Positions 24,542 through 39,568 of a DNA stretch of 64,000 nt are shown one piece after another. The stretch is from positions 53,222 to 117,221 of the forward strand of contig CALRQP020000008.1 of assembly GCA_943370355.1 (NCBI GenBank). Reading direction: 5' to 3'. The notes under the pieces were generated by a model. The model ran no database searches, was not told the DNA's origin, and saw nothing but the letters and a program-made list of their open reading frames with translations. The position numbers and the translations under genes are program-made. The number at the start of each line of letters is the position of its first letter. Position 1 is the first letter of the stretch. Source of the stretch: Sphingomonas paucimobilis (lineage in GTDB: Bacteria > Pseudomonadota > Alphaproteobacteria > Sphingomonadales > Sphingomonadaceae).

Positions 24542-25013
24542 CGCTGGCTGAACGCGCGGTTGCCAAGATCTGGACCGGACCGGCCTTGGCGAAATGGAAG
24601 GTCAGCGGCACCGCTGTGCCGGGCTTCGTCGCTACAGGCAGGCCGTAAATCATCAAATGCTTGCCGCCGGGCGCAAAGGCGACCTGTGTATTGGCGCGCA
24701 CGTCGACGGCCTTCAGCGCGCTCATCGACATCGCGCCGTGCATCGTTATCGTCTCGTGCAGCTCGACGCGGGTGCCCGCCGGGCCCGAGATACGCTCCAG
24801 CCGATCATCAGCCGCGCCACCTTCGAGGTGGAAATAACCGGCGGCCGGCCGGCCGGGCACCGGGGCCAGTCGCACGATCGCGTTGCTGACCTGCACCTGC
24901 TCGATGCCCCTCGAATGGGCGAGCCGCCCCGTCAGGAGGGCCAGCCCGAGCATAAGCAAAGCAATGATGATGGCGGCGGTGCCGAAGCGCCGGGCGCCGA
25001 TTCGCGTGTCCAT
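24516..25013 (-). CDS. periplasmic copper chaperone PCu(A)C (DUF461)
   Basis: 165 aa with a signal anchor and a His/Met copper motif region (VELHETITMHGAMSMSAL). Confidence 0.85.
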   Translation of the reverse strand: MDTRIGARRFGTAAIIIALLMLGLALLTGRLAHSRGIEQVQVSNAIVRLAPVPGRPAAGYFHLEGGAADDRLERISGPAGTRVELHETITMHGAMSMSALKAVDVRANTQVAFAPGGKHLMIYGLPVATKPGTAVPLTFHFAKAGPVQILATARSASDAMDNTHG

Positions 25014-25135
25014 AAACTTCCTAACGTCGGGCAGCGGAGATAAACCCGGCCTAGCGGCAAGTCGACCACCCTGCGGCGACCTGTCGCTTGTCCCATGTGC
25101 GGAACGATTGAGTCGTACTGGAATCGCCGCAAAGT

Positions 25136-25164
25136 CTTGCGACGCCCGTGCGGCCTTCCTACAT
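25136..25164 (+). promoter_or_regulatory. RpoH (sigma32)-type promoter candidate for dnaK
   Basis: CTTGCG-N17-CTACAT, 91 nt upstream of the dnaK ATG. It fits the alphaproteobacterial CTTG-N17/18-CYTAT-like consensus. Confidence 0.5.
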
Positions 25165-25255
25165 CGCCAACGCAGCCCGGATGCCGTGCTTGCCTTGCGA
25201 GGCGGCGGCGGGCTTGGAGACTAGTTCGGTTCCAGATTTTTCGGAGAGCACAGGA

Positions 25256-27154
25256 ATGGCCAAAGTCATCGGCATCGACCTCGGCACCACCAACAGCTGC
25301 GTTGCAGTGATGGAAGGGTCGACCCCCAAGGTTATCGAAAATGCGGAAGGCGCGCGCACGACGCCGTCGCAGGTTGCCTTCACCAAGGACGGCGAGCGAC
25401 TCGTCGGCCAGCCAGCCAAGCGCCAGGCAGTGACCAACCCCGAGAATACCGTGTTCGCGGTCAAGCGCCTGATCGGCCGCCGGTTCGATGACCCGATGAC
25501 CCAGAAGGACATGGGTCTTGTTCCCTACAAGATCGTCAAGGGCGGCAATGGCGACGCCTGGGTCAAGGCAGGCGGCAAGGATTACAGCCCCTCCGAAGTC
25601 TCGGCCTTCATCCTCCAGAAGATGAAGGAAACCGCCGAATCCTATCTTGGCGAAACCGTCACGCAGGCCGTCATCACGGTCCCCGCCTACTTCAACGACG
25701 CCCAGCGTCAGGCGACCAAGGACGCCGGCAAGATCGCCGGTCTCGAAGTGCTGCGCATCATCAACGAGCCGACAGCGGCGGCGCTTGCCTATGGTCTCGA
25801 CAAGAAGGCCGGCGCGACGATCGCGGTTTATGACTTGGGCGGCGGCACCTTCGACGTGTCGATCCTTGAGCTCGGCGACGGCGTGTTCGAGGTGAAGTCG
25901 ACGAGCGGCGACACCTTCCTCGGCGGTGAAGACTTCGACGCCAAGGTCGTCGAGTTCCTCGCAGCAGACTTCAAAAAGTCGGAAGGCATCGACCTGCGCA
26001 GTGACCGTTTGGCGCTGCAGCGTTTGAAGGAAGCCGCCGAAAAGGCGAAGATCGAACTGTCGTCGTCGGCCTCGACCGAGGTCAACCTGCCGTTCATCAC
26101 GGCCGACGCGACGGGTCCGAAGCATCTCGTCAAGTCGATCACCCGTGCCGACCTCGAAAAGCTCGTCATCGATCTGATCGAGAAGACCCGGAAGCCCTGC
26201 ATCGACGCGATGAACGAAGCCGGTGTGAAAGCCGACGCGATCGACGAAGTCATCCTCGTCGGCGGTATGAGCCGCATGCCGCGCGTCCGTCAGTTCGTGA
26301 AGGAACTGTTCGGCAAGGAGCCGAACACCTCGGTCAACCCTGACGAAGTCGTGGCGATGGGCGCGGCCATTCAGGCCGGCGTGTTGCAGGGCGACGTCAA
26401 GGACGTGCTGCTGCTCGACGTGACCCCGCTGTCGCTCGGCATCGAGACTTTGGGCGGCGTGTTCACCCGCATGATCGACCGCAACACGACGATCCCGACC
26501 AAGAAGTCGCAGACCTATTCGACGGCTGACGACAATCAGTCGGCGGTGACGATCCGCGTGCTGCAGGGCGAGCGCGAAATGGCGGCGGACAACAAGCTGC
26601 TCGGCAATTTCGATCTCGTCGGCATTCCGCCCGCCCCGCGCGGCGTGCCGCAGATTGAGGTGACCTTCGACATCGACGCCAACGGCCTCGTCAATGTCAG
26701 CGCCAAGGACAAGGGCACCGGCAAGGAGCAGCAGATCCGCATCCAGGCCTCGGGTGGCCTCAGCGACGCCGACATCGAAAAGATGGTGAAGGACGCCGAG
26801 CAGTTCGCGGAAGAGGACAAGAAGCGCCGCGCGTCGGCGGAAGCCCGAAACCAGGCCGACAGCCTGATCCACTCGACCGAGCGCCAGCTCGCCGAACATG
26901 GCGACAAGGTCTCGGGCGAGGTGAAGGGCGAGATCGAAACCGCCGTGGCCGCGCTGAAATCGGTGCTCGACTCGAACGACGTCGATGACATCAACGCCAA
27001 GAGCCAGGCGCTCGCGCAGGCGGCGATGAAGCTCGGCGAGGCGATCTATGCAGCGGAGCAGGCCTCGGCCGCCTCGCCGCAGCCCGACGCTGCGCCGAAA
27101 GACGACAATGTCGTCGATGCGGAATTCTCGGAAGTCGACGACGAGAAGAAGTAA
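25256..27154 (+). CDS. dnaK: molecular chaperone DnaK (Hsp70)
   Basis: 632 aa from ATG 25256. Blocks: [33 protein letters not shown]. Confidence 0.98.
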
Positions 27155-27160
27155 GCTGGC

Positions 27161-27215
27161 ATGGGCGGAGCGATTGATCCCGGTGGACAAGCGCTCCGCC
27201 CATTGCTTTGTGTTG
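27161..27215 (+). terminator. hairpin plus T-rich tail between dnaK and dnaJ (partial terminator or attenuator)
   Basis: ATGGGCGGAGCG (27161..27172) pairs with CGCTCCGCCCAT (27192..27203) across a 19-nt loop, followed by TGCTTTGTGTTG. Confidence 0.5.
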
Positions 27216-28803: not shown

Positions 28804-31380
28804 ATGAACATCGAAAAATTCACCGAGCGCGCCAAGGGTTTCCTGCAGGCCGCGCAGACCGTCGCGATACGGAACAGCCATCAGCGCGTTGCGCCCGAGC
28901 ATCTGCTGAAGGCGCTCATCGAGGATGAGCAGGGCATGGCTGCCGGACTGATCCGCGCGGCCGGCGGTGACCCCAAGGCGGCCGAGATCGCCACCGACGC
29001 GGCGCTGGCCAAAATCGCCAAGGTTAGCGGCTCAGGCGCGCAGCAGTTGCAGTGGGACAATGACACCGCGCGCATTCTCGACTCCGCCGAGCAGGTCGCG
29101 ACCAAGGCGGGCGACAGCTTCGTCACCGTCGAGCGTTTACTTCTCGCGCTGGCACTCGCCAAGGGCACGGCGGCGGGCGAGGCGCTCGCCAAGGCTGGCG
29201 TGACGGCGCAGGGCCTGAACAGCGCGATCGAAGGGCTGCGCAAGGGCCGCACCGCCGACACGGCGGGTGCCGAAGACCGCTATGATGCGCTCAAGAAATT
29301 CGCACGGGACCTGACGCAGGCGGCGCGCGACGGCAAGCTCGATCCCGTCATCGGCCGCGACGAGGAAATCCGCCGCACCATCCAGGTGCTGGCGCGCCGC
29401 ACCAAGAATAATCCGGTACTGATCGGCGAACCCGGCGTCGGCAAGACGGCGATCGTCGAAGGCCTCGCGCTGCGCATCGTCAACGGCGATGTGCCCGACG
29501 GCCTCAAGGACAAGAAATTGATGGCGCTCGACATGGGCAGCCTGATCGCCGGCGCGAAATATCGCGGCGAGTTCGAGGAACGGCTGAAGGGCGTGCTTGA
29601 CGAGGTCACCGCCGGTGCCGGCGATATCTTGCTGTTCATCGACGAGATGCACACGCTGATCGGGGCGGGCAAATCCGAAGGCGCGATGGATGCGTCCAAC
29701 CTGCTCAAGCCCGCCCTCGCCCGCGGTGAGCTGCACTGTATCGGCGCGACGACGCTCGACGAATATCGCAAGCATGTCGAAAAGGACGCGGCGCTCGCGC
29801 GGCGCTTCCAGCCAGTGTTCGTCGGCGAACCGACCGTCGAGGACACAATCTCTATCCTGCGCGGCCTCAAGGAGAAATACGAACTCCACCACGGCATTCG
29901 CATCACCGATGGAGCCATCGTTGCCGCCGCGACGCTCAGCAACCGCTATATCGCCGACCGCTTCCTGCCCGACAAAGCCATCGACCTCATGGACGAGGCC
30001 GCGTCGCGGCTGCGCATGGAAGTCGAATCCAAGCCCGAGGAAATCGAGAATCTCGACCGGCGCATCATGCAGCTGAAGATCGAGCGCGAGGCGCTGAAGC
30101 GCGAGACCGACCGTGCCTCGAAGGACCGGCTCGACGCGCTTGAGGACGAACTGGCCAATCTCGAGGAGCAGTCCGCCGCGCTCACCACGCGCTGGCAGGG
30201 CGAAAAGGACAAGCTCAACAGCGCCACCAAGCTCAAGGAGCGGCTCGACGCGGCGCGGATCGAAGTCGATCAGGCCCAGCGAAATGGCGACTTCGCCAAG
30301 GCGGGCGAGCTCAGCTACGGCGTAATCCCCGATCTCGAACGGCAATTGGCGGAAGCTGAGGCTGTCTCGGCAACCGCGATGCTGCGTGAGGAGGTCACCT
30401 CCGAAGACATCGCCGGCGTCGTCTCGCGCTGGACCGGCATCCCCGTCGATCGCATGCTCGAAGGAGAGCGCGAGAAGCTGCTGCAGATGGAAACGCAGCT
30501 CGGCAAGCGCGTCATCGGCCAGGCCGATGCCGTCAAGGCGGTGTCATCCGCCGTCCGCCGCGCACGCGCTGGACTGCAAGACCCCAACCGCCCCCTGGGC
30601 TCCTTCCTGTTCCTTGGGCCGACCGGCGTCGGCAAGACCGAGCTGACCAAGGCGCTCGCGCAATTCATGTTCGACGACGCCGCCGCAATGGTGCGCATCG
30701 ACATGTCGGAATTCATGGAGAAGCATTCGGTCGCCCGCCTGATCGGCGCGCCGCCGGGCTATGTCGGCTATGAAGAAGGCGGCGTGCTCACCGAAGCCGT
30801 CCGCCGCCGGCCCTATCAGGTCGTGCTGTTCGACGAGGTCGAGAAGGCGCACGGCGATGTCTTCAACATCCTGCTGCAGGTGCTCGACGACGGCCGGCTG
30901 ACCGACGGTCAGGGCCGCACCGTCGATTTCACCAATACGATCATCATCCTGACCTCGAACCTCGGCTCGCAATATATTGCCGCGTTGCGCGACGATCAGA
31001 AGGTCGAGGAGGTCGAGGCGCAGGTGATGGAGGTGGTGCGCGGCCATTTCCGCCCCGAATTCCTCAACCGGCTCGACGAGATCATCCTGTTCCACCGGCT
31101 GGCGCTCGAACATATGGGCGCGATCGTCGACATCCAGGTCGATCGCGTCGCGGCGCTGCTCAAGGATCGCAAGATCATGCTGGAACTCACTGACGCTGCC
31201 CGGCGCTGGCTGGCGCGGGTTGGCTATGATCCGGTGTATGGCGCGCGACCGCTCAAACGGGCGGTGCAAAAGCATCTGCAGGACCCGCTTGCCGACCTGA
31301 TCCTGCGCGGTGATGCGCCGGACGGGGCCACGATCCGGGTCGACGAGGGCGATGGGAAGCTGGCGCTGGTGGTGGCTTAG
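28804..31380 (+). CDS. clpB: ATP-dependent chaperone ClpB
   Basis: 858 aa with a Clp N-domain, two AAA+ modules ([30 protein letters not shown]) and a middle coiled coil. Confidence 0.98.
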
Positions 31381-31421
31381 CAGGGCTTCGCCCGGTCGGC
31401 ACAGAGAGCTATAGACTGGGC

Positions 31422-32414
31422 ATGTCAGACCTCGCGACCCTGTTGGCCCGTTCGCCCGACCTGCTGCCGCTGGCGTACGATCCCGAGCGCGATGCCATGC
31501 TGTTCGTCGATTTCGACCGCGCCGCCTATGAGCGCGCGAGCTTCCTCGATGAACGTCTGCTGGGAGACGTGCGCGCGCGCTGGGTGCCTGCAGAACAGGT
31601 CGTGCTCGCTGCGGCGGCGATGCCGATGCCCAGTTGCAGCTTCATTTTCCACATCGGCCATGTTGGCTCGACGTTGCTGGCCCGGATGATCGGCGCGGCC
31701 GGTGCACATGTGCTGCGGGAGCCTGCCGCGCTCCGCGTGTTCGCAGGCGAGGGCGGCCTAACAAGCCGCGAGCCGCGTCTGGATGCGTTGCTTCGGCTCT
31801 GGTCGCGCACCTACACGCCAGGCCAGCTGTCCGTCGTAAAGGCATCAAGCTTTGTATCAGAAATCGCTGGCGAATTGCTCCACATGACCGGACAACCCGG
31901 ACTGGCCATATCGGTTTCGGCCGAGGTCTATCTCGCTGGTATCCTCGGCGGGGCCATTTCCCGGCAGGAGATCGCGGCGGCCGCGCCGCTGCGCGCCACA
32001 CGGTTGGTGCAGCGCCTGGGCGGAATCGTCCCGGTTACCGGAGAGGGCGAGGCGATCGCGATGAGCTGGCTCTGCGAAATGACGGCCCTACTCGCCGCCG
32101 AGCCGGCTGATGCGCTCTTCTGGCTCGATTTCGAGGCATTCCTTGTCGAACCCGACGCCGGGCTGACCACTTGCTTGGATCATCTCAAGATCGAGGCGTC
32201 ACCTGATGTCATAACGGCCATCGTGAACGGCCCATTGCTGACTCGTTATTCGAAGGCTCCCGAACATGCCTATACGCCAGGCCTGCGCCAAGCGGTGCTC
32301 GATAGAGCCCGCACTGACTTTGCGGACGAGATTACTGCTGGACTCCGCTGGCTCGATGTAATGGCGGCTCAATGGCGAGACGCGGGACAGGCGCTCGAGC
32401 GAGCTGGGCGGTAG
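31422..32414 (+). CDS. hypothetical protein A1; sulfotransferase-like layout (inference); paralog of 33212..34243
   Basis: 330 aa with no signal peptide. FIFHIGHVGSTLLARMIG, VVKASSF, LDFEAFLVEPDAGLTTCLDHL and IVNGPLLTRYSK blocks are shared with A2. Confidence 0.7.
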   Translation: MSDLATLLARSPDLLPLAYDPERDAMLFVDFDRAAYERASFLDERLLGDVRARWVPAEQVVLAAAAMPMPSCSFIFHIGHVGSTLLARMIGAAGAHVLREPAALRVFAGEGGLTSREPRLDALLRLWSRTYTPGQLSVVKASSFVSEIAGELLHMTGQPGLAISVSAEVYLAGILGGAISRQEIAAAAPLRATRLVQRLGGIVPVTGEGEAIAMSWLCEMTALLAAEPADALFWLDFEAFLVEPDAGLTTCLDHLKIEASPDVITAIVNGPLLTRYSKAPEHAYTPGLRQAVLDRARTDFADEITAGLRWLDVMAAQWRDAGQALERAGR

Positions 32415-32535
32415 ATAGGCACCGAGATGCCCCGTTCGCCGACCATCATCCTTCAGCGATGGGCCTGACGGGTCGATAATCCGCATGACCCGGGCAATGG
32501 AAACTGGGGCCAATGATGCCTCGGTACCGCCAGCG

Positions 32536-32793
32536 TCAGTTCGAAACCTGCCGGTTCGTATTGTCCATCAGCATCTTGCGCGCTTCGGCCGAATGTTGAT
32601 CGTCGACATATTTCCACTGTTCGCGGGTCAGACAGGTCCGCCGTTTCTTGACCAGCGATCCGATCTCCGCCTCCGAGCGACAGATTTTCTTTTCCTCAAC
32701 AGGCGGCGGGGTGGCAGGCGGCGCGCTCTGTGCCGCAGCGACCGATGCCAAGATCGTCGCCCCCAACAGGCTTGGCAGAATTTTCCCGATCAT
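32536..32793 (-). CDS. small secreted two-Cys protein S1
   Basis: ORF 32536..32799, ATG at 32793 (85 aa). Signal peptide MIGKILPSLLGATILASVAAA, Pro-rich linker, then PVEEKKICRSEAEIGSLVKKRRTCLTREQW. Confidence 0.65.
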   Translation of the reverse strand: MIGKILPSLLGATILASVAAAQSAPPATPPPVEEKKICRSEAEIGSLVKKRRTCLTREQWKYVDDQHSAEARKMLMDNTNRQVSN

Positions 32794-32795
32794 GC

Positions 32796-33089
32796 TCAAT
32801 TCCCCGACGGACGGCCGGCGCTGTCCTCGACCATCTTGCGCGCTTCGCGCTCCTGCTGTGCGTCAACGGCGAGCCATTGCGCCTTGGTAAGACAGGTCTT
32901 GCGTTTCTTGATCAACGAACCAGTTTCGATCGCTCCCCGGCAAATCTTCTTTTCCTCAACGGGTGCGGCAGCGGCGGTTGCATCCGGAGCGGTCGTTGCG
33001 CCCGCCGGATCGGCGGCGACGCAGGGCACCGACAGCGCTGCCGACACCAGTCCTGCGGCGACCATCAAAATTCTATTGCTGGAACGCAT
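32796..33089 (-). CDS. small secreted two-Cys protein S2 (tandem paralog of S1)
   Basis: 97 aa from ATG 33089 within ORF 32796..33326. A GGGAGG RBS lies 5 nt upstream. Signal peptide, then PVEEKKICRGAIETGSLIKKRKTCLTKAQW. The stop is 2 nt before the S1 ATG. Confidence 0.7.
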   Translation of the reverse strand: MRSSNRILMVAAGLVSAALSVPCVAADPAGATTAPDATAAAAPVEEKKICRGAIETGSLIKKRKTCLTKAQWLAVDAQQEREARKMVEDSAGRPSGN

Positions 33090-33211
33090 TGAAACCTCCC
33101 GACAAACGTTCAAACGAAAGCATGTCATGCGGCGCGCCGATCGGGAAGCCCCAAATCGACGAAATGTCGCGACAGGTTGCGACGCTGCACCAGCCGGGCA
33201 ATAACCGGGCG

Positions 33212-34243
33212 ATGACGCAAATCCGCCCCGATGGCGCGACGGTCGCACGTGACCCGCTGTGGCACGCGCACCGTTACGACCCGCAATATGACGCCTTCCA
33301 TTTCCGCTACGTCCCCCGGGAGGCACATCGGGCGTCTATCTTCCTAACCGACGAATATCTGCCGTCGGACGATGGTCCCGTTGTCGTAACCCGAAGTGAG
33401 GCGATCGCGAGCGCCGGGACACCGGCACCGCTCCATTTCATCTTCCACTCCGCTTTCTGCCTGTCGACACTGCTCGCCCGAGCCTTCGACGTCCCTGGCA
33501 TCGCGATGGGGCTGAAGGAGCCGATGGTATTCAACGACCTGTCGGGCTGGAAGCACCGGGGCGGCAAGCCTGCCGATATCGCGCGGGTACTCGACAGCGC
33601 GCTGACCATGCTGGCACGGCCGTTCGGGCCCGGCGAAACGGTCGTTGTCAAACCCTCGAACATCGTCAATCCGCTCATTGCCGCGGCGCTGGCAATGCGT
33701 CCAACATCGCATGCGCTGCTCCTCGAGGCGCCGCTGCGCACCTATCTGAGCTCGATCGCCAAGAAGGAAATGACGGGCCGCCTTTGGGTCAGAGACCTTC
33801 TGGTGAAGCTGCTCAAGGACGGCCTGATCGACCTCGGCTTCGAGCTGGAGGATTTCCTCGGCCAGACCGACTTGCAAGTCGCGGCGGTCGGCTGGCTGGC
33901 ACAGCATGCGCTGTTCGCGCGATTGGCTGGGCAATATCCCGGACGCATACGGACGCTGGATAGTGAAACGCTGCTCGCGCAACCTGCCAAAGCGATGGCG
34001 GCGCTGGTCGCACATTTCGGGATGCCGCTGGACGAGGCAGCGATTTCCGAAATCGTGTCCGGCCCGGCCTTCACTCGCCACTCCAAATTCGGCACCGAAT
34101 TCGGCGGCGAGGCGCGCGCCGCAGAATATCGCGACGCAGCGGCTGTGCACGCCGACGAGATCGACAAGGCAGCGATCTGGGCCGAGGCGGTAGCGAACAC
34201 GGCCGGAGTGTCGATGTCGCTGCCTGCATCGTTGCTGGGGTAA
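33212..34243 (+). CDS. hypothetical protein A2; paralog of A1
   Basis: 343 aa from ATG 33212 within ORF 32963..34243. This start aligns with the A1 N-terminus (YDPxxDA). Blocks: HFIFHSAFCLSTLLARAF, VVKPSNI, LDSETLLAQPAKAMAALVAHF, IVSGPAFTRHSK. Confidence 0.7.
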   Translation: MTQIRPDGATVARDPLWHAHRYDPQYDAFHFRYVPREAHRASIFLTDEYLPSDDGPVVVTRSEAIASAGTPAPLHFIFHSAFCLSTLLARAFDVPGIAMGLKEPMVFNDLSGWKHRGGKPADIARVLDSALTMLARPFGPGETVVVKPSNIVNPLIAAALAMRPTSHALLLEAPLRTYLSSIAKKEMTGRLWVRDLLVKLLKDGLIDLGFELEDFLGQTDLQVAAVGWLAQHALFARLAGQYPGRIRTLDSETLLAQPAKAMAALVAHFGMPLDEAAISEIVSGPAFTRHSKFGTEFGGEARAAEYRDAAAVHADEIDKAAIWAEAVANTAGVSMSLPASLLG

Positions 34244-34255
34244 CCCCCGACACGT

Positions 34256-34338
34256 CCCGTCATCCTGACGAACGTCAGGATCTCTCTCCGAGTAGCCGAT
34301 ACTCCCGACAAGATCCTGACGTTCGTCAGGATGACGGG
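34256..34338. repeat. nested-palindrome intergenic repeat (27-nt inverted arms)
   Basis: CCCGTCATCCTGACGAACGTCAGGATC (34256..34282) is the exact reverse complement of GATCCTGACGTTCGTCAGGATGACGGG (34312..34338). Each arm contains its own hairpin, ATCCTGACG-AA-CGTCAGGAT. Confidence 0.85.
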
Positions 34339-34374
34339 CTCTCACCGGCGCACTCTCCTCTCCCCCAAAAAGAA

Positions 34375-34400
34375 AAGGGCGGACCCGAAGGTCCGCCCTT
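34375..34400 (-). terminator. rho-independent terminator of the TonB-dependent receptor gene (also usable from the + strand)
   Basis: AAGGGCGGACC-CGAA-GGTCCGCCCTT forms an 11-bp stem. On the minus strand it is followed by TTCTTTTTGGGG, 24 nt past the receptor stop codon. Confidence 0.7.
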
Positions 34401-34423
34401 TCCTTTGGCAGTCGAAGTTCAGT

Positions 34424-37400
34424 TTAGAACTTCAGGCGCGCCTGCACCGCAAAGCGGCGGCCCAGCGAGTCGTAGGTCGACGGGTAGGTGTTGCCGCTGT
34501 TGAAGGCGGTGGTACCGACACCCGTTCCGACCAGCGGCGGCTGCTTGTTGAGCAGGTTCTCCACCGTGACGGTCAGCGACAGATTGTCGTTCACCCCGAC
34601 GCGCGTCGACAGGTCGAAATAGTCGTACGCCTTGATGTGCTGGAAATCGACAGTCTGACCAACGGTCGAATTGCCGGCAGCAGTCGCGGCTGCAAGGCTG
34701 GAGCCGGAGTTCAAAACGCCTTGGAAGGCGCCGCCGTTGCCAGAGGCAATATCCAGAGGCTCCTGCTGAACCTTGTCGATGTGGCGCCACAGCAGCGAGA
34801 CGTCGATCTGCTTGAAGCTCAGCGTGGTGCGCTGCGACCACTGGAACTTCGGCTGAATCGAGCCGCAGTTCGCGCTGTAGTAGCCGGTGCACTCGCGGTT
34901 GACCGACGTCGGAACAAAGACGTTGGCGTTGAACTTCGAGTCGTGCGTGTAGTTGCCCGTGAAGGTCAGCCCCAGCTTGGCGAAGCCGATATCGCGGCTG
35001 TAGTTCGCCGAGACGTCGATACCGTCGGTCTTGAGCGAGCCAAGGTTCGACAGCGCGGTGGACAGGCCGGGCGTCGTTGCCGGATCGCCGTCAAGACCGC
35101 CGGTGATCGGGTTACGGCGGATGAGCGTGCAGGCCGGGTCGGTGGCGGCAGACGCCGACGGCGTGAAGTTGGCACCGGTCCGAGCCCCGAAGCAGGCCGT
35201 GATCGCATCAGCCGAAGACGGCGTGGTGATCGCACCCTTCACCTTGATGTTGTAGTAATCGACGGTGATCGAGAAGCCCGGGATCGCCGCCGGCTGGATC
35301 ACAGCACCGAAGGTGTAGGAGTTCGACGTTTCCGGCTTCACATTGACGTTGCCGCCCGAAGTCACATTGGCCTGGTTGGCAGTCGGGTTGGCGATGCTGC
35401 CGATATTCCCGGCCGTTGCGCCCTGAGCCAAGCAGACTGCGCGAAGATTTGCGGGCTGCGGGTTAGTGCGACCGGGGAGGGCCGCGCCCGCCGTGGTGAT
35501 GAGCGCGCACGGATCGTCGGTCAGCGTGGTCAGGCCCGTCGAAACCGGCGTGAACAGCTCACCGATGTTCGGGGCGCGAACGGCGTGGCTATAGTTGCCA
35601 CGCAGCTTCAGGCCATCGACCGGCTCCCAGCTGCCGCCCGCCTTGTAAGTCGTCGTCTTGTACGACGGCGACGACGGGGCATCGACCTTGTAGCTCGAGT
35701 AGCGCACGCCGGCTTCAAGCGTCAGGCTCTTGAAGAAGGGCTTATCCTGGACGAGCGGTGCAACCAACTCGCCGAAGGCTTCCCAAACGTCATAGCCACC
35801 GGTGATGTTCGGTGCAGCGCCACCGGCACCGCCCAGCTCACCCGGTGTCTGTGCCAGCGAGTCGGACCGCTGCGACGCCGTATATTTGCGATATTCAGTA
35901 CCGACGGCGATGCCGATCGGGTCCTGCGCCCAGGGAGCGGCAACACCGAAGTCGCCGCTGATCGTGCCACGGCCCTGTGCGAGCGAGGTCTTGACCAGCG
36001 TCGTGCTCTCACCCGTGATGTACGGGATCTGCCCGGCCGTGATCGAGCCTTCCGGCCCGAAGAAGTTGACCGGAACGCAGCCCGCGTTGCCGCTGAGGCA
36101 GGTCGTGGTGTTGGTCGCAAGCAGGCTGTCCCGGACCCGCGAGGTCAGAACATAGCCCTGCAGCGCCTGGCGGTTCTCCGACTCGCCGTACGACCCGTTG
36201 ACATCCCAATCGAGGCTGTCGGTCAGCTTGCCGCGAAGGCCGGCACGATAGTCGAAGATCGTCGTCGTGAACTGGCTGATGCGCGGCCCGATTTCCGTCG
36301 TGCGGCGGGAGAGCGTGACACCGGGGTTGACGTTGACGGCAGCCTCGCTGGCCTGGATAATGCCGTCCCCGTTTACATCGACCGGTGCCGTCGCATTGGT
36401 GCCGATCACGCGGTACGCAGGGTTGCTGGTAGTGGTTGCGGTCGCAGCCGCAGCGCATTCCGCCGGGGTGAAGCGAGGCTGATAGCCCGCGCCCGGATTG
36501 ACGTCGAATGCGCAAAACTGGTTGCGCAGCGTTGCCGGCAGATAGGGGTTGCTCAGCGGGATCTGCACCGCCGAACCGAACACACCCGACGGCGCGATGA
36601 TCGTGTTGACGGTGTTCTTCGAGAACAGCGCGCGGTTGTAGATCTCGACGTTGTCGGTGAACTCATACTTGCCCTGCGCGTAGATGTTGAAGCGCTTAAA
36701 CGGCGTCTGGTAGATGTTGTACGGGTTGAAGTTGAACAAATTGAACGTGGTCACCGCGGCGCCAGGCGTCGTGGACCCCGTGCGGGTGTCGATCTGACGG
36801 ACCGGACCGTTTGCGGTTGCCGGATTTACGTCCGGAGTCGTCGTGCCGGCGAGCAGCGGACGCGTGCCCGAGAAGCGCGTCGGGATCGAGGTGCCCGAAC
36901 CGCCGTAAGTGCCCGCGAAGGACGAAATATTGAACGCGCCGTAGTCGCGTGCGCCCTGATAGACCGGATCGGCTTCCTGATAGCCGATGCTGATCGTGGC
37001 GTTGCCCTTGCCGTCGTCGAAGTTGCCGCCGATGGTCAGGTCGGTGCGGAAGGTGTTGCCGTCACCCTTTTCGGTGATCTGCTCGGAAGCCGACACGTCG
37101 ACGCCCTGGAAGTCCTGCTTGGTGATGAAGTTCACAACGCCGGAAATGGCGTCGGCACCGTAGGTGGTCGAGGCACCGCCGGTCAGCACTTCGACGCGGT
37201 TGAGCAGCGCCAGCGGAATGTTGTTCAAGTCGACGCGACCGGCGAGGCCCGACGGGGCGATGCGGTAACCGTCCAGCAGGACGATGTTGCGGATCGAGCC
37301 GAGGCCGCGGAGGTTGACGAACGACGCGCCGCCGTTGCCATTGTTCACGGCCGAACCGATCGACGGAACGATGCCGGGGATTTCACGAAGAACCTCTTCG

Positions 37401-37645
37401 GCGACGTTCGACTGCTTGAGCTCGATCTCGTCCGACGTCGTAACCGTCACCGGCGCCGAGCGCTCGAGATTGGGGTTCTTGATCAGCGAGCCGGTGACGA
37501 CGATCTCTTCGTCGCCTGCAGCGGCTTCGTCAGCGGCGGCAACGGCCGTCTTGGCAGCCTGCGCGAAGGCGGGCGAAGCGAAAGCGGCGACGCCGACGAG
37601 AATCGTCGAGCGCAGCAGTGCGGTCTTCAGTGAATTATTCGACAT
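34424..37645 (-). CDS. TonB-dependent receptor (large, 1073 aa)
   Basis: Signal peptide, TonB-box-like EEIVVTGSLI, plug (NLRGLGSIRNIVLLDGYR, VEVLTGGASTTYGADAISGVVNFITK) and C-terminal FAVQARLKF. Confidence 0.9.
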   Translation of the reverse strand: MSNNSLKTALLRSTILVGVAAFASPAFAQAAKTAVAAADEAAAGDEEIVVTGSLIKNPNLERSAPVTVTTSDEIELKQSNVAEEVLREIPGIVPSIGSAVNNGNGGASFVNLRGLGSIRNIVLLDGYRIAPSGLAGRVDLNNIPLALLNRVEVLTGGASTTYGADAISGVVNFITKQDFQGVDVSASEQITEKGDGNTFRTDLTIGGNFDDGKGNATISIGYQEADPVYQGARDYGAFNISSFAGTYGGSGTSIPTRFSGTRPLLAGTTTPDVNPATANGPVRQIDTRTGSTTPGAAVTTFNLFNFNPYNIYQTPFKRFNIYAQGKYEFTDNVEIYNRALFSKNTVNTIIAPSGVFGSAVQIPLSNPYLPATLRNQFCAFDVNPGAGYQPRFTPAECAAAATATTTSNPAYRVIGTNATAPVDVNGDGIIQASEAAVNVNPGVTLSRRTTEIGPRISQFTTTIFDYRAGLRGKLTDSLDWDVNGSYGESENRQALQGYVLTSRVRDSLLATNTTTCLSGNAGCVPVNFFGPEGSITAGQIPYITGESTTLVKTSLAQGRGTISGDFGVAAPWAQDPIGIAVGTEYRKYTASQRSDSLAQTPGELGGAGGAAPNITGGYDVWEAFGELVAPLVQDKPFFKSLTLEAGVRYSSYKVDAPSSPSYKTTTYKAGGSWEPVDGLKLRGNYSHAVRAPNIGELFTPVSTGLTTLTDDPCALITTAGAALPGRTNPQPANLRAVCLAQGATAGNIGSIANPTANQANVTSGGNVNVKPETSNSYTFGAVIQPAAIPGFSITVDYYNIKVKGAITTPSSADAITACFGARTGANFTPSASAATDPACTLIRRNPITGGLDGDPATTPGLSTALSNLGSLKTDGIDVSANYSRDIGFAKLGLTFTGNYTHDSKFNANVFVPTSVNRECTGYYSANCGSIQPKFQWSQRTTLSFKQIDVSLLWRHIDKVQQEPLDIASGNGGAFQGVLNSGSSLAAATAAGNSTVGQTVDFQHIKAYDYFDLSTRVGVNDNLSLTVTVENLLNKQPPLVGTGVGTTAFNSGNTYPSTYDSLGRRFAVQARLKF

Positions 37646-37863: not shown

Positions 37864-38376
37864 ATGCGACCAGCAGCGATCCTGGCGGCCGGATTGGCGC
37901 TCGCGGCAACGGCGGCCATCGCCAAGGACACGCCGCCCTCGCCTTTGGTCAGCGCCCTCGTGGCCTGCAAATCGGAAACGGACGACGCCAAGCGCCTTGC
38001 TTGCTATGACCGCACAGCTGGCGCGCTCGCGGACGCGACCGCGAAAGGGCAAATTGCCGTCGTCGACCGCGAAGACGTCCGGAAGACTCGCCGGGCGCTG
38101 TTCGGATTCGTGCTGCCGAAGCTGCCCTTCTTCTCCGACGACGACAGTGCAAAGGACACGCCGGACGTCATCGAAACCACGGCGGAGTCGGTGCGGGCCC
38201 TCGGTTACGGCATGTATTCGATCACGATCGAGGACGGCGCGGTTTGGCGCACCACCGAAGTGTCGCGGCGCGATCCGAAGCCGGGCATGAAGATCAGGAT
38301 CAAGCGCGGCGCGCTCGGCGGCTATTTCCTGAGCATCGACGGCGCGGTTGCGGTTCGTGCTTCCCGCGTTGGCTGA
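37864..38376 (+). CDS. hypothetical periplasmic protein (Cys-x-RLACYD motif)
   Basis: 170 aa from ATG 37864 within ORF 37618..38376. A GGGGAGA RBS lies 6 nt upstream. Signal peptide MRPAAILAAGLALAATAAIA, then CKSETDDAKRLACYD. Confidence 0.65.
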   Translation: MRPAAILAAGLALAATAAIAKDTPPSPLVSALVACKSETDDAKRLACYDRTAGALADATAKGQIAVVDREDVRKTRRALFGFVLPKLPFFSDDDSAKDTPDVIETTAESVRALGYGMYSITIEDGAVWRTTEVSRRDPKPGMKIRIKRGALGGYFLSIDGAVAVRASRVG

Positions 38377-38386
38377 GGCCGGCTGC

Positions 38387-39568
38387 GTGGCTGACGACCC
38401 GCAACAGCTCAACGCGCTGGGCGTCCGCGCGCTCAATGACGGCGACGCGGCGACCGCTGCGCCGCTGTTCGCGCGGGCGGCAGCCGCCGATCCGCAGGCG
38501 ATTGCCCTGTGGATCAACCTTGCCAAGGCGCAACGCCTGCTCGGCGACGATGCCGGCGAGCTGCGCAGCCTCGACAAGGCGCTGGCAATCGATGGCCTGC
38601 ACCTGATGGCGTTGGTCCGGAAGGCGGAACTGCATGAGCGGCTTGGCGAAATGCCGCAGGCCAGCCGGAACTGGTCAGGCGCGCTCGCCGTGGCACCGCC
38701 GTTCGAGCAGCTGCCGCCTGCGCTTGCCGCACGGCTGACCGAAGCAAGGGCGTTTGTAACGCGGCACACCGAGGCATTTGGCCAGACAATTGACGCCGGC
38801 CTTGCGTCAGCGCGCGCCACTGCCGACCCGCAAACGCTCCGCCGCTTCAATGCCGCCGTGGACGCGTCGGTCGGACGCCGCCGCATTTACGCAAACGAAT
38901 GCGCCGGCTTGCATTACCCCTTCCTACCCGCCGACGAGTTTTTCGAACGGCATCATTTCCCGTGGCTCGAGAAAATCGAGGCGGCGACACCGGCGATCCG
39001 CGCCGAAATCGAATCGCTGCTACGGGACGGCGATGAAGGGTTCGCACCCTATGTCTCGATGGATCCCGGCACGCCCGAGAACAAATGGACGCCGCTCGAC
39101 AATTCGCTCGCCTGGAGCGCCTATTATCTGTGGAAATATGGCGAGCCGGTCCGGCACGCGCTCAAGCGCTGCCCGGCGACAGCGGCAGCGCTTGAATTGC
39201 TGCCGCGTGCTGATCTGCCGGGACGTGCGCCAACCGCCTTCTTCTCAGTCCTGAAGCCGCGCACCCACATCCCGCCGCACACCGGCGTCAGCAACACCCG
39301 CACGATCGTGCACCTGCCGCTGATCGTGCCCCCCGGTTGCAGCTTTCGCGTTGGCGGCGAAACGCGCGTATGGAAGGTCGGCGAGGCGTTTGCGTTCGAC
39401 GACACGATTGAACACGAAGCCCGGAACGACAGCGACGAGATACGCGCGGTGCTGATCTTCGACGTGTGGAATCCGCACATCACCGAGCCGGAGCGCGAAC
39501 TGCTGCGCGAATTCTTCCGCACTGCAGATGCCAGCGGCTTCGACCCCAATCCGCGCGAGGCGGGGTGA
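38387..39568 (+). CDS. TPR-repeat / aspartyl-asparaginyl beta-hydroxylase family protein
   Basis: ORF 38348..39568. N-terminal TPRs and a C-terminal AspH/LpxO-like 2OG-oxygenase domain (FSVLKPRTHIPPHTGVSNTRTIVHLPLIVP, FDDTIEHEARN). The start is uncertain: GTG 38387 or TTG 38348. Confidence 0.85.
   Translation: MADDPQQLNALGVRALNDGDAATAAPLFARAAAADPQAIALWINLAKAQRLLGDDAGELRSLDKALAIDGLHLMALVRKAELHERLGEMPQASRNWSGALAVAPPFEQLPPALAARLTEARAFVTRHTEAFGQTIDAGLASARATADPQTLRRFNAAVDASVGRRRIYANECAGLHYPFLPADEFFERHHFPWLEKIEAATPAIRAEIESLLRDGDEGFAPYVSMDPGTPENKWTPLDNSLAWSAYYLWKYGEPVRHALKRCPATAAALELLPRADLPGRAPTAFFSVLKPRTHIPPHTGVSNTRTIVHLPLIVPPGCSFRVGGETRVWKVGEAFAFDDTIEHEARNDSDEIRAVLIFDVWNPHITEPERELLREFFRTADASGFDPNPREAG

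What the first reader, a model, noticed from the sequence alone, without database searches (positions are those of the whole stretch)
31422..34243. Candidate novel module: two paralogous sulfotransferase-like proteins bracketing two tandem small secreted two-Cys proteins
Four uncharacterised genes form a compact, almost mirror-symmetric block. A1 (31422..32414, +, 330 aa) is followed by a 121-nt gap. Then come S1 (32536..32793, -, 85 aa) and S2 (32796..33089, -, 97 aa, stop 2 nt before the S1 ATG). A 122-nt gap follows, then A2 (33212..34243, +, 343 aa).

A1 and A2 are clear paralogs by hand alignment. They share the blocks YDPxxDA, RASxFLxDExL, FIFHxxxxxSTLLAR, LxEP, VVKxS, LDxExxLxxP...H[LF], IxxIVxGPxxTR[YH]SK and DEIxxxxxW. 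The order runs from a P-loop-like GSTLL segment, through VVKxS, to LDxExLxxP followed by a hydrophobic H[LF]. That order resembles the 5'-PSB / 3'-PB / C-terminal YEDLxxxP...FLG layout of PAPS-dependent sulfotransferases, though the spacing is not a perfect fit. A2 has lost the Gly/His residues of the putative phosphate loop (HSAFCLSTLL versus GHVGSTLL). One copy could therefore be catalytic and the other a pseudo-enzyme partner.

S1 and S2 are tandem duplicates, about 60% identical over the last 55 residues by my alignment. Their DNA still shares TCTTTTCCTCAAC 260 nt apart. Each has a Sec-type signal peptide and a Pro/Ala-rich linker. Then comes PVEEKKICRx5GSLxKKRxTCLTxxQWxxVDxQ...EARKM, with exactly two cysteines. 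A1 and A2 have no signal peptide. Cytoplasmic enzyme-like paralogs beside exported mini-proteins recall peptide-modifying pairs such as RaxST/RaxX. S1, but not S2, has a Tyr in an acidic context (QWKYVDDQ). I know of no described function for this gene combination.
Basis: partly seen in the sequence, partly recalled or inferred. Interest (0 to 1): 0.75.

Follow-up and report, generated by a model that had tools for sequence, protein, structure and literature searches.

The report
Sulfotransferase-fold pair in TonB-receptor cluster
The two sulfotransferase-like genes and the two small exported proteins are real, but the tidy four-gene mirror is a local rearrangement inside a larger, widely conserved and uncharacterised Sphingomonadales cluster built around an outer-membrane TonB-dependent receptor and iron/2-oxoglutarate hydroxylases.

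Summary
All four ORFs, the gaps and both paralogies are confirmed. A1 gives a confident AlphaFold model (pLDDT 89.8), and its PDB fold matches are essentially all PAPS sulfotransferases. Family members weakly hit Pfam Sulfotransfer_3. The canonical Lys/Arg of the phosphate loop is absent: A1 has GHVGST and A2 has AFCLST.

A2 is not a decayed copy. Its variant loop is invariant across relatives in 476 species genomes.

The conserved unit is not A1-S1-S2-A2. In 80 related loci, A2 sits with:
- a ~1050-aa TonB-dependent receptor;
- a TPR + Asp/Asn beta-hydroxylase;
- one S-type mini-protein (63/80 loci, always on the receptor's strand);
- a ~180-aa exported protein;
- in subsets, a canonical TPR-sulfotransferase, other 2OG oxygenases and a third A clade.

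A1-type genes normally lie elsewhere (rplY | A1 | PiuC-like oxygenase). The closest relatives have only clpB-S-A2. Each A clade pairs with its own Fe/2OG oxygenase.

S belongs to a large unannotated family (1815 representative clusters). Tyr is not conserved in it, which argues against a RaxST/RaxX-type system.

The best reading is a hydroxylate-then-sulfate tailoring cluster tied to the receptor. The substrate is unknown.

The parts
28804..31380 (+). clpB. A syntenic landmark upstream of the cluster. A1 starts 41 nt after its stop, with no terminator-like site between them.
   Evidence: ORF. clpB is found upstream of A2 in 59/80 related loci. The junction sequence is, and no terminator was found.
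31422..32414 (+). A1: a cytoplasmic sulfotransferase-fold protein of the 'A1 clade' (loop FHIGHVGSTLL, then LREP, KASSFVSE, RYSK). It sits here in a non-canonical position.
   Evidence: AlphaFold pLDDT 89.8. All Foldseek top hits are sulfotransferases. 24/33 family members hit PF13469, best E 2.6e-7. The canonical locus lies elsewhere.
32536..32793 (-). S1: a small Sec-exported two-Cys protein and the diverged tandem copy. Its ATG lies 2 nt after the S2 stop, so it is probably co-transcribed with S2.
   Evidence: It carries the S-family signature C-x6-GSL-x6-C-x-T-x3-W.
32796..33089 (-). S2: a small Sec-exported two-Cys protein. It is the orthologue of the single S gene beside A2 in relatives (70% identity to the S of L003).
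   Evidence: The AlphaFold model shows a beta-hairpin (48-51/65-68) carrying both Cys, then a helix at 69-92. A GGGAGG ribosome-binding site lies upstream, read.
33090..33211 (.). Divergent S2/A2 intergenic region, a presumed promoter region. A TTGCGA-N17-AATAAC-like element lies just upstream of the A2 ATG. GTTGC-type motifs (GTTGCGAC in this window and some orthologues, related variants in others) recur in orthologous regions.
   Evidence: Sequences. The consensus sigma-70 scan found nothing, and there is no EcfG-type GGAAC-N16-CGTT upstream of any of 58 S genes. The promoter assignment is inference only.
33212..34243 (+). A2: a cytoplasmic sulfotransferase-fold paralogue of the 'A2 clade' (loop FHSAFCLSTLL, then MGLKEP, KPSN, RHSK). 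It is the conserved core gene of the cluster.
   Evidence: Paralogy to A1. Family alignment and invariants. 476 species genomes encode a relative. Only weak Pfam sulfotransferase hits.
34256..34338 (.). An 83-nt near-perfect hairpin (28-bp stem) between the convergent A2 and receptor genes.
   Evidence: Self inverted match, fold at -94.7 kcal/mol with z = -10.7 for the whole spacer, and arms found only here in the window.
34367..34405 (.). Bidirectional intrinsic-terminator-like hairpin (GGGCGGACC-CGAA-GGTCCGCCC, flanked by A-rich and T-rich runs) serving the convergent A2 and receptor genes.
   Evidence: Sequence and fold.
34424..37645 (-). TonB-dependent receptor, 1073 aa, of no assigned substrate class. 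It is convergent with A2.
   Evidence: Pfam Plug + TonB_dep_Rec_b-barrel. No NCBIfam model reaches its cut-off. An orthologue (>45% identity) is present in 40/46 full-flank loci.
37864..38376 (+). u180: an exported ~170-aa protein with an N-terminal C-x11-C-Y-D (RLACYD) motif. It is divergent from the receptor and immediately upstream of, and overlapping, the hydroxylase gene.
   Evidence: The family is present in 28/46 full-flank loci. u180-like genes sit directly downstream of TPR-AspH genes in L085 and L091. There is a weak VasI-motif hit only.
38348..39568 (+). A cytoplasmic Asp/Asn beta-hydroxylase-family (cupin) oxygenase. Its orthologues in related loci carry TPR hits, but none was detected in this copy. 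It is the commonest direct neighbour of A2 in other genomes.
   Evidence: PF05118 at E 4e-42. No signal peptide. Present in 39/46 full-flank loci, and adjacent to A2 in 36/68.

Best explanation
The block is a lineage-specific elaboration of a conserved cluster found in Sphingomonadales (and Kordiimonadales).

Shown:
- A2, a strongly conserved and highly divergent member of the PAPS-sulfotransferase fold, is kept together with a TonB-dependent receptor, a TPR + Asp/Asn beta-hydroxylase, an exported ~180-aa protein and, usually, one S-type exported disulfide-hairpin mini-protein.
- In this genome an A1-clade paralogue has moved in next to clpB. A1-type genes normally sit beside a PiuC/YbiX-like oxygenase at the rplY locus.
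- The S gene has been tandemly duplicated here.
- Each A clade pairs with its own Fe(II)/2-oxoglutarate oxygenase: A1 with PiuC-like, A2 with TPR-AspH, A3 with TauD-like.

Inferred mechanism: the cytoplasmic oxygenase hydroxylates a substrate, and the A-type transferase then O-modifies the new hydroxyl, most likely by sulfation from PAPS. The product is functionally tied to the receptor.

I consider the likeliest substrates to be the co-encoded exported proteins (S, u180), tailored before Sec export. The reasons are that three of the partner enzyme families carry peptide-binding TPR/Sel1 domains, and that the S subtype co-varies with the enzyme set. The substrate and the chemistry are not demonstrated.
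For: Fold:
- The A1 model has pLDDT 89.8 and pTM 0.89.
- 31 PDB matches have E<=1e-3, and the listed top 50 (E up to 2.7e-3) are all sulfotransferase-fold enzymes: CurM ST, HS 3-OST, TPST, Teg12/14 and SULTs.
- 24/33 A1-family members hit PF13469.
- hhalign places HVGST on the RSGTT loop and LREP on LEER of a canonical TPR-sulfotransferase.

Conservation: 57 invariant columns in the A1 family and 74 in the A2 family, including the loop, [RK]EP, K-x5-[SN] and [YH]SK.

Neighbourhood in 46 loci with full flanks: receptor 40, AspH 39, S 36, u180 28, TPR-sulfotransferase 16, extra A paralogue 8. The positions of S and AspH differ between loci while the genes stay within the cluster.

Oxygenase pairing:
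- A3 is adjacent to TauD in 10/10 loci.
- A2 is adjacent to AspH in 36/68 and to a P4H-type oxygenase in 6/68 (3 of these have both; 39/68 have at least one).
- A1 is adjacent to a PiuC-like gene in 5/10.

The same guild travels together next to relaxase and coupling-protein genes in L085/L091: TPR-ST, u180-like, TPR-AspH, 2OG oxygenases, A1-type and, in L085 only, an S-like gene.

S links:
- S-like genes lie beside all three A clades.
- The four-Cys S subtype goes with the TPR-sulfotransferase: 10/13 against 4/46, Fisher p 3.6e-6, not corrected for phylogeny.

Precedents:
- Iyer et al. 2010 predicted that beta-hydroxylase + sulfotransferase operons hydroxylate and then sulfate co-encoded secreted proteins (PMC2938197).
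- CciT-CciO shows that a receptor can strictly require a cytoplasmic dioxygenase (PMC12004947).
Against: - No biochemical data exist for any member.
- The basic residue of the 5'-phosphosulfate loop is missing: His in A1, Phe in A2. A2 also lacks the loop Gly. PAPS use is therefore unproven.
- The window's own A1 and A2 do not reach any Pfam cut-off, and no PDB sequence relative exists.
- All enzymes lack signal peptides while S and u180 are Sec substrates. Modification would have to precede export, which is unusual.
- S is never on A2's strand.
- No Tyr, Asp or Asn is invariant in the S core.
- Most members of another S subfamily lie in a housekeeping context with no A-type gene: only 2 of about 17 distinct contexts have one.
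- Kordiimonas-type loci keep A2 + receptor without a detectable S.
- Nearly all sampled loci are from one order, so conserved order partly reflects descent.
- AspH's nearest named relatives are lipid hydroxylases (OlsC, LpxO), which fits a non-protein substrate equally well.
Confidence: 0.4

Rival explanations
1. Small-molecule route. The cytoplasmic enzymes (oxygenases, A-type and canonical sulfotransferases) make, or process after import, a low-molecular-weight or cell-associated ligand of the TonB-dependent receptor. This could be a siderophore-like compound, a sulfated or hydroxylated metabolite, or an envelope lipid. S and u180 would be periplasmic accessory proteins of the receptor, not substrates. 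A variant is organosulfur scavenging, with an imported sulfate ester handled by TauD-type and A-type enzymes.
For: - S always shares the receptor's strand and often lies directly downstream of it.
- CciT-CciO/PiuA-PiuC is an experimentally shown receptor + cytoplasmic dioxygenase partnership whose models all involve a small ligand.
- The canonical neighbour of A1 is a PiuC/YbiX-type protein.
- AspH's closest named relatives are the lipid hydroxylases OlsC and LpxO.
- TauD-family partners of A3 typically act on small molecules (established knowledge).
- Iyer et al. 2010 predicted siderophore-like products for receptor + dioxygenase clusters.
- S genes commonly occur without any A gene.
Against: - The cluster holds no NRPS, other scaffold-building enzyme or inner-membrane transporter.
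- TPR/Sel1 domains on AspH, the sulfotransferase and the P4H-type oxygenase point to peptide or protein substrates.
- No Fur box or other iron signal was recognised by eye in the receptor or S/A2 intergenic sequences (no Fur-box scan was run).
- S-like genes recur beside three different A clades.
Confidence: 0.3
2. A1 (catalytic) and A2 (pseudo-enzyme partner) form a pair that sulfates a tyrosine of the exported S peptides, as RaxST does for RaxX.
For: - Sulfotransferase fold, with tyrosylprotein sulfotransferases among the best fold matches.
- S1 has Tyr in an acidic context, and 25/66 S proteins have W-x-Y-[IV]-[DN]-[DE].
- Two different A clades have come to share one cluster at least twice: A1+A2 here and A3+A2 in 9/80 loci.
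Against: - The Tyr is absent from S2, from the closest orthologues (L003, L004) and from 41/66 S proteins.
- A1-type and A2-type genes are at separate loci in most genomes.
- A2's variant motifs are invariant across its family, so it is under strong selection in its own right.
- There is no peptidase-ABC exporter. S carries a Sec signal, not a GG leader.
- S is on the strand opposite to A2 in 67/68 cases.
Confidence: 0.07
3. There is no functional module. The genes are neighbours only because this clpB-to-rpoN/xseA stretch of the chromosome has kept its order by descent in Sphingomonadales. S is a general periplasmic mini-protein unrelated to A.
For: - The region is core chromosome: hrcA-grpE, dnaK-dnaJ, clpB on one side and rpoN-lptBAC on the other.
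- Nearly all sampled loci belong to one order.
- A2, S and the receptor are on different strands.
- The S family has 1815 representative clusters and many members lie elsewhere.
Against: - Gene order inside the cluster has been reshuffled while membership is kept.
- Enzymes of the same guild accumulate specifically here: TPR-ST, TauD, P4H and extra A copies.
- The same guild recurs next to mobile-element genes without the clpB context.
- A3-TauD pairs are adjacent in 10/10 loci, including unrelated contexts.
- With 1-3 A genes per genome, an S gene within about 2 kb would be expected in well under 1% of cases by chance, against 54/80 observed.
Confidence: 0.15

Closest known systems
PAPS-dependent sulfotransferases (Pfam Sulfotransfer_3/PF13469; structurally TPST, heparan sulfate 3-OST, CurM ST, Teg12/14)
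   Same: Same fold (Foldseek probability 1.0, TM 0.37-0.52). A strand followed by a loop ending in G-S-T-L-L at the 5'-phosphosulfate position. A conserved [RK]-E-P about 16 residues later, where TPST and 3-OST carry their catalytic Glu (my recollection of those structures, not tested here). A K-x5-[SN] motif after the next strand, where the 3'-phosphate R...S motif sits.
   Different: No Lys/Arg in the loop (His in A1 and A3, Phe in A2). A2 has no loop Gly but has an invariant Cys. There is an extra ~60-residue N-terminal beta-hairpin domain with invariant FLD. The window's proteins do not reach Pfam cut-offs, and profiles find no PDB sequence relative.
Beta-hydroxylase + sulfotransferase gene neighbourhoods predicted by Iyer, Abhiman, de Souza & Aravind 2010 (PMC2938197)
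   Same: Fe/2OG hydroxylases of the Asp/Asn/Pro beta-hydroxylase type are co-encoded with sulfotransferases and with secreted non-enzymatic proteins. TonB-type receptors appear in related clusters. The proposed logic is to hydroxylate and then sulfate the co-encoded secreted protein.
   Different: Their secreted partners are collagen-like or tail-collar proteins, and their sulfotransferases are canonical. Neither the A family, the S mini-proteins, u180 nor this Sphingomonadales cluster is described there.
CciT-CciO / PiuA-PiuC / Fiu-YbiX: a TonB-dependent transporter plus a cytoplasmic Fe(II) dioxygenase (PMC12004947)
   Same: An outer-membrane receptor is co-conserved with a cytoplasmic 2OG-type oxygenase. 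Genetic data show the receptor's function needs the oxygenase, by an unknown mechanism. The usual neighbour of A1 is a PF13640 protein of this PiuC/YbiX type.
   Different: That pair is operonic and Fur-regulated and has no sulfotransferase-fold gene or small exported protein. Here the oxygenase beside the receptor is a TPR-AspH, the receptor is not of a recognised siderophore class, and no Fur site was seen.
RaxST-RaxX (Xanthomonas tyrosine-sulfated peptide)
   Same: A cytoplasmic sulfotransferase-fold enzyme is encoded next to a small exported peptide.
   Different: No conserved Tyr. Sec signal instead of a GG leader. No RaxA/RaxB-type exporter. S is never co-oriented with A. A lacks the canonical PAPS motifs.
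Bufferins (Sec-signal RiPP precursors modified by cytoplasmic MNIO enzymes). Cited from my own knowledge, not retrieved here.
   Same: A precedent for cytoplasmic tailoring of a small Cys-containing protein that carries a Sec signal peptide. An MbnB/HvfC pair with an 84-aa Cys-rich precursor lies next to the A1 cluster in L085.
   Different: The enzyme families and chemistry are different. The similarity is only an analogy for pre-export modification.

Membership tests
PAPS-dependent sulfotransferase superfamily | Sulfotransferase alpha/beta fold | tested here: met
   A1 model pLDDT 89.8. The top 50 Foldseek PDB hits are all sulfotransferase-fold enzymes, best E 1.9e-5, TM up to 0.52. A2 was not modelled; its fold is inferred from its paralogy to A1 (E 6e-20).
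PAPS-dependent sulfotransferase superfamily | Sequence match to a curated sulfotransferase model above its cut-off | tested here: not met
   Window A1 has no Pfam hit. Window A2 hits PF19798 at 14 bits against a cut-off of 23.2. Among family members, 24/33 of the A1 family (best E 2.6e-7) and 4/33 of the A2 family hit PF13469 at E<=0.1.
PAPS-dependent sulfotransferase superfamily | 5'-phosphosulfate-binding loop P-[KR]-x-G-[ST]-T with a basic residue | tested here: not met
   hhalign puts A1 H-V-G-S-T on R-S-G-T-T. The basic residue is His in A1 and A3 and Phe in A2. A2 also replaces the Gly (AFC[CL]ST). The terminal S-T is kept in all.
PAPS-dependent sulfotransferase superfamily | 3'-phosphate-binding motif (R...S after a beta-strand) | tested here: inconclusive
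   An invariant K-x5-S (A1: KATSFxSE) or K-x5-N (A2: KPSNxxN; A3: KANVPVN) sits at the corresponding place by secondary-structure order. Equivalence was not shown by a residue-level structural alignment.
PAPS-dependent sulfotransferase superfamily | Binds PAPS and transfers sulfate | not testable with these tools
   Needs biochemistry.
RaxST/RaxX-type tyrosine-sulfated peptide system | Conserved sulfated Tyr in an acidic motif of the peptide | tested here: not met
   Tyr at W+2 occurs in 25/66 S proteins. It is absent from S2 and from the closest orthologues.
RaxST/RaxX-type tyrosine-sulfated peptide system | Leader peptide cleaved and exported by a peptidase-containing ABC transporter encoded in the operon | tested here: not met
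   S1 and S2 have Sec-type signal peptides, judged by reading. The only ABC-family gene within +/-10 kb is the ATPase (41172-42011) next to lptA and lptC genes, which I take to be lptB; there is no peptidase-ABC exporter or membrane-fusion gene.
RiPP-like precursor + tailoring enzyme cluster | Precursor gene consistently linked and usually co-oriented with its modifying enzymes | tested here: inconclusive
   S is linked to A2 in 63/80 loci but lies on the opposite strand in 67/68. Other S subfamily members mostly lack A neighbours. The S subtype co-varies with the TPR-sulfotransferase.
RiPP-like precursor + tailoring enzyme cluster | Demonstrated covalent modification of the precursor | not testable with these tools
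   Needs mass spectrometry.
TonB-dependent receptor + cytoplasmic dioxygenase partnership (CciT-CciO type) | Receptor gene co-conserved next to a cytoplasmic Fe(II)/2OG oxygenase gene | tested here: met
   Among 46 full-flank loci, the receptor is present in 40 and AspH in 39. PF05118 at E 4e-42 with no signal peptide.
TonB-dependent receptor + cytoplasmic dioxygenase partnership (CciT-CciO type) | Oxygenase of the PiuC/YbiX (PF13640) type in an operon with a Fiu/PiuA-type catecholate receptor, Fur-regulated | tested here: not met
   Here the oxygenase is a TPR-AspH. The receptor reaches no siderophore-receptor cut-off. The genes are not operonic, and no Fur box was recognised. A PiuC-like gene is the usual neighbour of A1-type genes elsewhere but is absent from this window.

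The most novel reading that the evidence does not exclude
S-type mini-proteins (and perhaps u180) are ribosomally made, hydroxylated and then sulfated in the cytoplasm by oxygenase/A-type enzyme pairs, and exported by Sec. Outside the cytoplasm they act as the cognate ligand, or as a ligand-carrying cofactor, of the neighbouring TonB-dependent receptor. This would be a new class of enzymatically tailored protein ligand for TonB-dependent uptake or signalling. It would also give the A family a new sulfotransferase chemistry, with a His/Cys loop in place of Lys/Arg.
Probability: 0.1. Interest if true: 0.85.

Novelty: new variant of a known kind. Interest (0 to 1): 0.5.

Why it matters
TonB-dependent receptors in Sphingomonadales, Caulobacter and Xanthomonas are often accompanied by cytoplasmic oxygenases whose role is unknown. 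The only genetic dissection (CciT-CciO, 2025) shows that the receptor needs the oxygenase but not why.

This cluster adds three unannotated families to that puzzle, arranged in testable pairs (A1/PiuC-like, A2/AspH, A3/TauD):
- the A sulfotransferase-fold family, with three clades;
- the S mini-proteins;
- u180.

If the A proteins do sulfate oxygenase-made hydroxyls, the cluster would give a concrete chemical link between cytoplasmic tailoring and outer-membrane transport. It would also reveal a sulfotransferase active site without the canonical basic residue. If they do not, the A family is a repurposed sulfotransferase fold with an invariant Cys-containing loop, which is of interest for enzyme evolution.

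Tried and rejected
- Curated family searches gave nothing usable for A1, A2, S1 or S2 in Pfam or NCBIfam. Ten diverse S proteins also gave nothing.
- Profile searches of the A1 and A2 families against PDB sequences found no relative.
- hhalign of A1 and A2 against a canonical TPR-sulfotransferase domain gave only short, weak alignments. I used them only to place the loop.
- The AlphaFold model of S2 is only partly confident (mean pLDDT 62), and Foldseek found no match.
- The word-indexed homologue search found only 8 S relatives, so I needed the full HMMER scan.
- Contig look-ups for two distant S proteins returned contigs under 1.1 kb and were uninformative.
The narrower one sampled a different S subfamily.
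- Regulatory leads went nowhere. There is no sigma-70 consensus site in the block and no EcfG-type promoter upstream of 58 S genes. I recognised no Fur box by eye.
- Rfam matches in 31-38.5 kb are all below gathering scores and fall on the hairpin/terminator.
- Cluster look-up gave no organism or protein names.
- Literature searches for this gene combination returned nothing specific.
- The idea that A2 is a pseudo-enzyme was rejected on conservation.
- The idea that the mirror block is an ancestral module was rejected on synteny.

Full report
OBSERVATION

The four ORFs exist at the stated coordinates, with gaps of 121 nt and 122 nt, and the S2 stop lies 2 nt before the S1 ATG. A1 and A2 are paralogues: 28% identity over 325 aa, E 6e-20. 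S1 and S2 are 60% identical over their last 55 residues, E 6e-23. At the DNA level they are 69% identical over 135 nt and share TCTTTTCCTCAAC at 32688 and 32948.

Three small corrections apply.
- The S2 precursor has a third Cys inside its signal peptide.
- The A2 ORF is open further upstream, and a 373-aa database model exists. The family alignment supports the 343-aa start.
- I could judge the signal peptides only by reading them, supported by the disordered residues 1-41 of the S2 model.

The block has lower third-position GC (0.68-0.76) than clpB and the receptor gene (0.83-0.84).

WHAT A1 AND A2 ARE

Neither protein reaches a Pfam or NCBIfam cut-off. Both nevertheless belong to large families.
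- A1 has more than 1600 relatives. One is 70% identical and the rest are at most about 50%.
- A2 has more than 2300 relatives at roughly 60-79% identity.

An AlphaFold model of A1 built on 33 homologues is confident (pLDDT 89.8, pTM 0.89). Its PDB matches are essentially all PAPS-sulfotransferase-fold enzymes: CurM ST, heparan sulfate 3-OST, tyrosylprotein sulfotransferases, Teg12/14 and cytosolic SULTs. Thirty-one have E<=1e-3, with TM 0.3-0.5.

At sequence level, 24 of 33 A1-family members hit Sulfotransfer_3 (best E 2.6e-7), but only 4 of 33 A2-family members do. A profile-profile alignment to a canonical TPR-sulfotransferase from the same loci places A1's HVGST on the RSGTT phosphosulfate loop and LREP on LEER. 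Profiles of either family find no PDB sequence relative.

The defining basic residue of the loop is missing, however: His in A1 and Phe in A2. A2 also replaces the loop glycine.

A2 is not a decayed copy. FHSAxCxST, MGLKEP, KPSN and HSK are invariant over its family, which is more conserved than the A1 family (65% against 60% mean column identity). A third clade ('A3', loop AHCGST) exists in some genomes. The loop thus forms a series: GHVGST, AHCGST, AFC[CL]ST.

WHAT S1 AND S2 ARE

A full HMMER scan with a nine-sequence profile finds 1815 representative clusters at E<=1e-3; the 150 listed are mostly 75-130 aa. None matches Pfam or NCBIfam.

In the S genes of the related loci the core has fixed spacing: [IV]-C-[RK]-x4-[TI]-G-S-L-x6-C-x-[TS]-x2-[QE]-W, in 62 of 66 sequences. 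The model puts the two Cys on neighbouring strands of a hairpin, followed by a long helix. There is no fold match.

Two further features of the family stand out.
- A Tyr two residues after the Trp occurs in only 25 of 66. It is absent from S2 and from the nearest orthologues.
- Most two-Cys S proteins end in -[GS]-N (32 of 50). A four-Cys subtype ends in Cys.

THE REAL UNIT

A scan of one genome per species found A2 relatives in 476 stretches, and I fetched the best 80 loci. Nearly all are Sphingomonadales, plus Kordiimonas and Pseudokordiimonas. I analysed them by tblastn and by crude gene calling with clustering, and checked the partner families with Pfam.

In the 46 loci with full flanks:

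| Partner of A2 | Loci (of 46) |
|---|---|
| Orthologous ~1050-aa TonB-dependent receptor | 40 |
| TPR + Asp/Asn beta-hydroxylase (PF05118) | 39 |
| S gene | 36 |
| Exported ~180-aa protein (u180) | 28 |
| Canonical TPR + Sulfotransfer_3 protein | 16 |
| Extra A paralogue | 8 |

Sel1 + 2OG-FeII_Oxy_3 and TauD-type oxygenases occur in subsets.

Across all 80 loci, S is present in 63 and lies within 400 bp of A2 in 54. It is either divergent upstream of A2 or between A2 and the receptor. In 67 of 68 cases it is on the strand opposite to A2, which is the receptor's strand. Tandem S genes are rare (4 loci).

THE MIRROR BLOCK IS LOCAL

The closest A2 relatives (L003 at 79%, L004 at 77%) have clpB-S-A2 with no A1.

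A1-type genes sit elsewhere.
- The A1 homologue at 70% identity, and the Sphingoaurantiacus A1-type gene, lie at rplY-pth-ychF | A1 | PiuC/YbiX-like oxygenase. In Sphingoaurantiacus this is about 140 kb from the A2 locus.
- In three other lineages the A1-type gene is divergent from secE-nusG-rplKAJL-rpoBC.

S2 is the orthologue of the single ancestral S (70% identity to the S of L003). S1 is a diverged duplicate (58%). The arrangement therefore arose by moving an A1-type gene in next to clpB, with only 41 nt and no terminator between them, and by tandem duplication of S.

THE STEADIEST PARTNERS OF A ARE OXYGENASES

Counting genes within 700 bp:
- A3 is adjacent to a TauD-family gene in 10 of 10 loci, always divergent.
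- A2 is adjacent to AspH in 36 of 68 and to the P4H-type oxygenase in 6.
- A1 is adjacent to a PiuC-like PF13640 gene in 5 of 10.

In L085 and L091 an A1-type gene sits next to relaxase and coupling-protein genes, inside a block that holds a PiuC-like gene, TPR-AspH, another 2OG oxygenase, TPR-sulfotransferases and a u180-like gene directly downstream of AspH. L085 also has a 153-aa S-like protein.

A TEST FROM THE S SIDE

A metagenome scan with a different S subfamily (EKKICRxE) gave 58 loci. About 17 distinct contexts are at least 4 kb long.

Most lie in what I read as a glyA-nrdR-methyltransferase-S-rpsD context with no A gene. Two (L104, L110) carry an A3-TauD pair next to one or two S genes.

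So S is a broad family that often occurs without A. A-type genes are nevertheless found beside S genes far more often than the sub-1% expected by chance, and this holds for all three A clades. Within the A2 loci, the four-Cys S subtype goes with the canonical TPR-sulfotransferase: 10/13 against 4/46, Fisher p 3.6e-6, not corrected for phylogeny.

MECHANISM

Shown:
- the fold of A;
- strong purifying conservation of both A clades;
- a reshuffled but persistent cluster around a receptor;
- clade-specific pairing of A with oxygenases;
- exported S and u180.

Inferred: an oxygenase installs a hydroxyl and the A-type protein O-modifies it, most simply by sulfation, with a product linked to the receptor. 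Iyer et al. 2010 proposed this logic for beta-hydroxylase + sulfotransferase operons with co-encoded secreted proteins (PMC2938197). CciT-CciO shows genetically that a receptor can depend on a cytoplasmic dioxygenase, by an unknown mechanism (PMC12004947).

I lean towards protein substrates (S, u180). TPR/Sel1 domains decorate three of the partner enzyme families, and the S subtype tracks the enzyme set.

The small-molecule alternative is nearly as likely, for these reasons.
- S is co-oriented with the receptor and not with A2.
- The enzymes are cytoplasmic while S is a Sec substrate.
- S often occurs without A.
- AspH's nearest named relatives are lipid hydroxylases.

The RaxST/RaxX-type reading and the catalytic/pseudo-enzyme reading are disfavoured, as set out above.

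COMPARISON AND NOVELTY

A1 and A2 work within the sulfotransferase fold but fail two membership features: the curated cut-off and the basic loop residue. I therefore call them a divergent, unannotated branch rather than members of a named family. The overall theme (receptor + oxygenases + sulfotransferases + secreted proteins) was sketched in 2010. This particular cluster, the three-clade A family, the S family and u180 are not described in anything I could retrieve.

VERDICT

The finding is real and moderately interesting. It is a new variant of a known kind, and its function is open. Interest 0.5.

Noticed in passing
window 34256-34338 and 34367-34405: An 83-nt near-perfect hairpin (28-bp stem, arms containing CATCCTGACGAACGTCAGGAT) lies between the convergent A2 and receptor genes, followed by a classic bidirectional terminator. 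The arms occur nowhere else in the 64-kb window. It may be a MITE/REP-like insertion. Its Rfam miRNA-type hits are below threshold and merely reflect the hairpin.
   Followed up: partly
window 24932-27190 (-) versus 25148-27154 (+): The long minus-strand ORF matches Pfam NAD-GH (PF10712) at E 1e-186. It lies antisense to dnaK (HSP70, E 4e-275, GC3 0.85), which is followed by dnaJ. The NAD-GH match is therefore an antisense-ORF artefact, not a gene.
   Followed up: partly
L002, L090 (rplY-pth-ychF); L083, L092, L093 (secE-nusG-rplKAJL-rpoBC); L104, L110 (rpsD): A-family genes of different clades sit next to ribosomal-protein or translation operons in three separate configurations. This could be chance, with conserved landmarks acting as insertion boundaries, or it could hint at a translation-related target. 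I did not test it.
   Followed up: no
L085 9850-11790 and L086 2850-4793: Next to the A1-type cluster lies an MbnB_TglH_ChrH (DUF692) + HvfC_N gene pair. In L085 an 84-aa signal-peptide protein rich in Cys-x-x-x-Cys-type repeats precedes the pair. By my own knowledge this looks like a bufferin-type RiPP system. In L085 mobile-element genes (MobA/MobL relaxase, TraG-like coupling protein) lie a few kb downstream.
   Followed up: no
window 37864-38376 / 38348-39568; L085 1827-3634; L091 1740-3744: The exported u180 protein (conserved C-x11-C-[FY]-D 'RLACYD' motif; weak VasI-motif hit only) is immediately adjacent to, or overlapping, the TPR-AspH gene on the same strand, in either order. This suggests an operon of a cytoplasmic hydroxylase with an exported protein.
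   Followed up: partly
S genes in L003-L082 and window S1/S2: Two-Cys S proteins end in -[GS]-Asn-COOH in 32 of 50 cases, including S1 (VSN) and S2 (SGN). The four-Cys subtype ends in Cys. A conserved C-terminal Asn beside an Asp/Asn hydroxylase gene is suggestive but unexplained.
   Followed up: partly
L098-L144 (metagenome loci): A separate S subfamily (PKEKKICRxExxTGSL...) lies in a conserved housekeeping context that I read as glyA-nrdR-RNA methyltransferase-S-rpsD. S-type mini-proteins therefore have several paralogues per genome with different neighbours.
   Followed up: partly
window 31381-31421: Only 41 nt and no terminator-like structure separate clpB from A1, so A1 may be transcribed with the heat-shock gene clpB in this genome. 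The wider region is rich in chaperone genes (hrcA, grpE, dnaK, dnaJ, clpB).
   Followed up: no
PMC10040529, Table 2 (Pontixanthobacter genomes): That paper lists consecutive gene clusters annotated as lasso-peptide B2 protein, sulfotransferase, aspartyl beta-hydroxylase, sulfotransferase-domain protein, PqqD and asparagine-synthase-like protein. This suggests that sulfotransferase + AspH tailoring of a RiPP exists in the same bacterial order.
   Followed up: no
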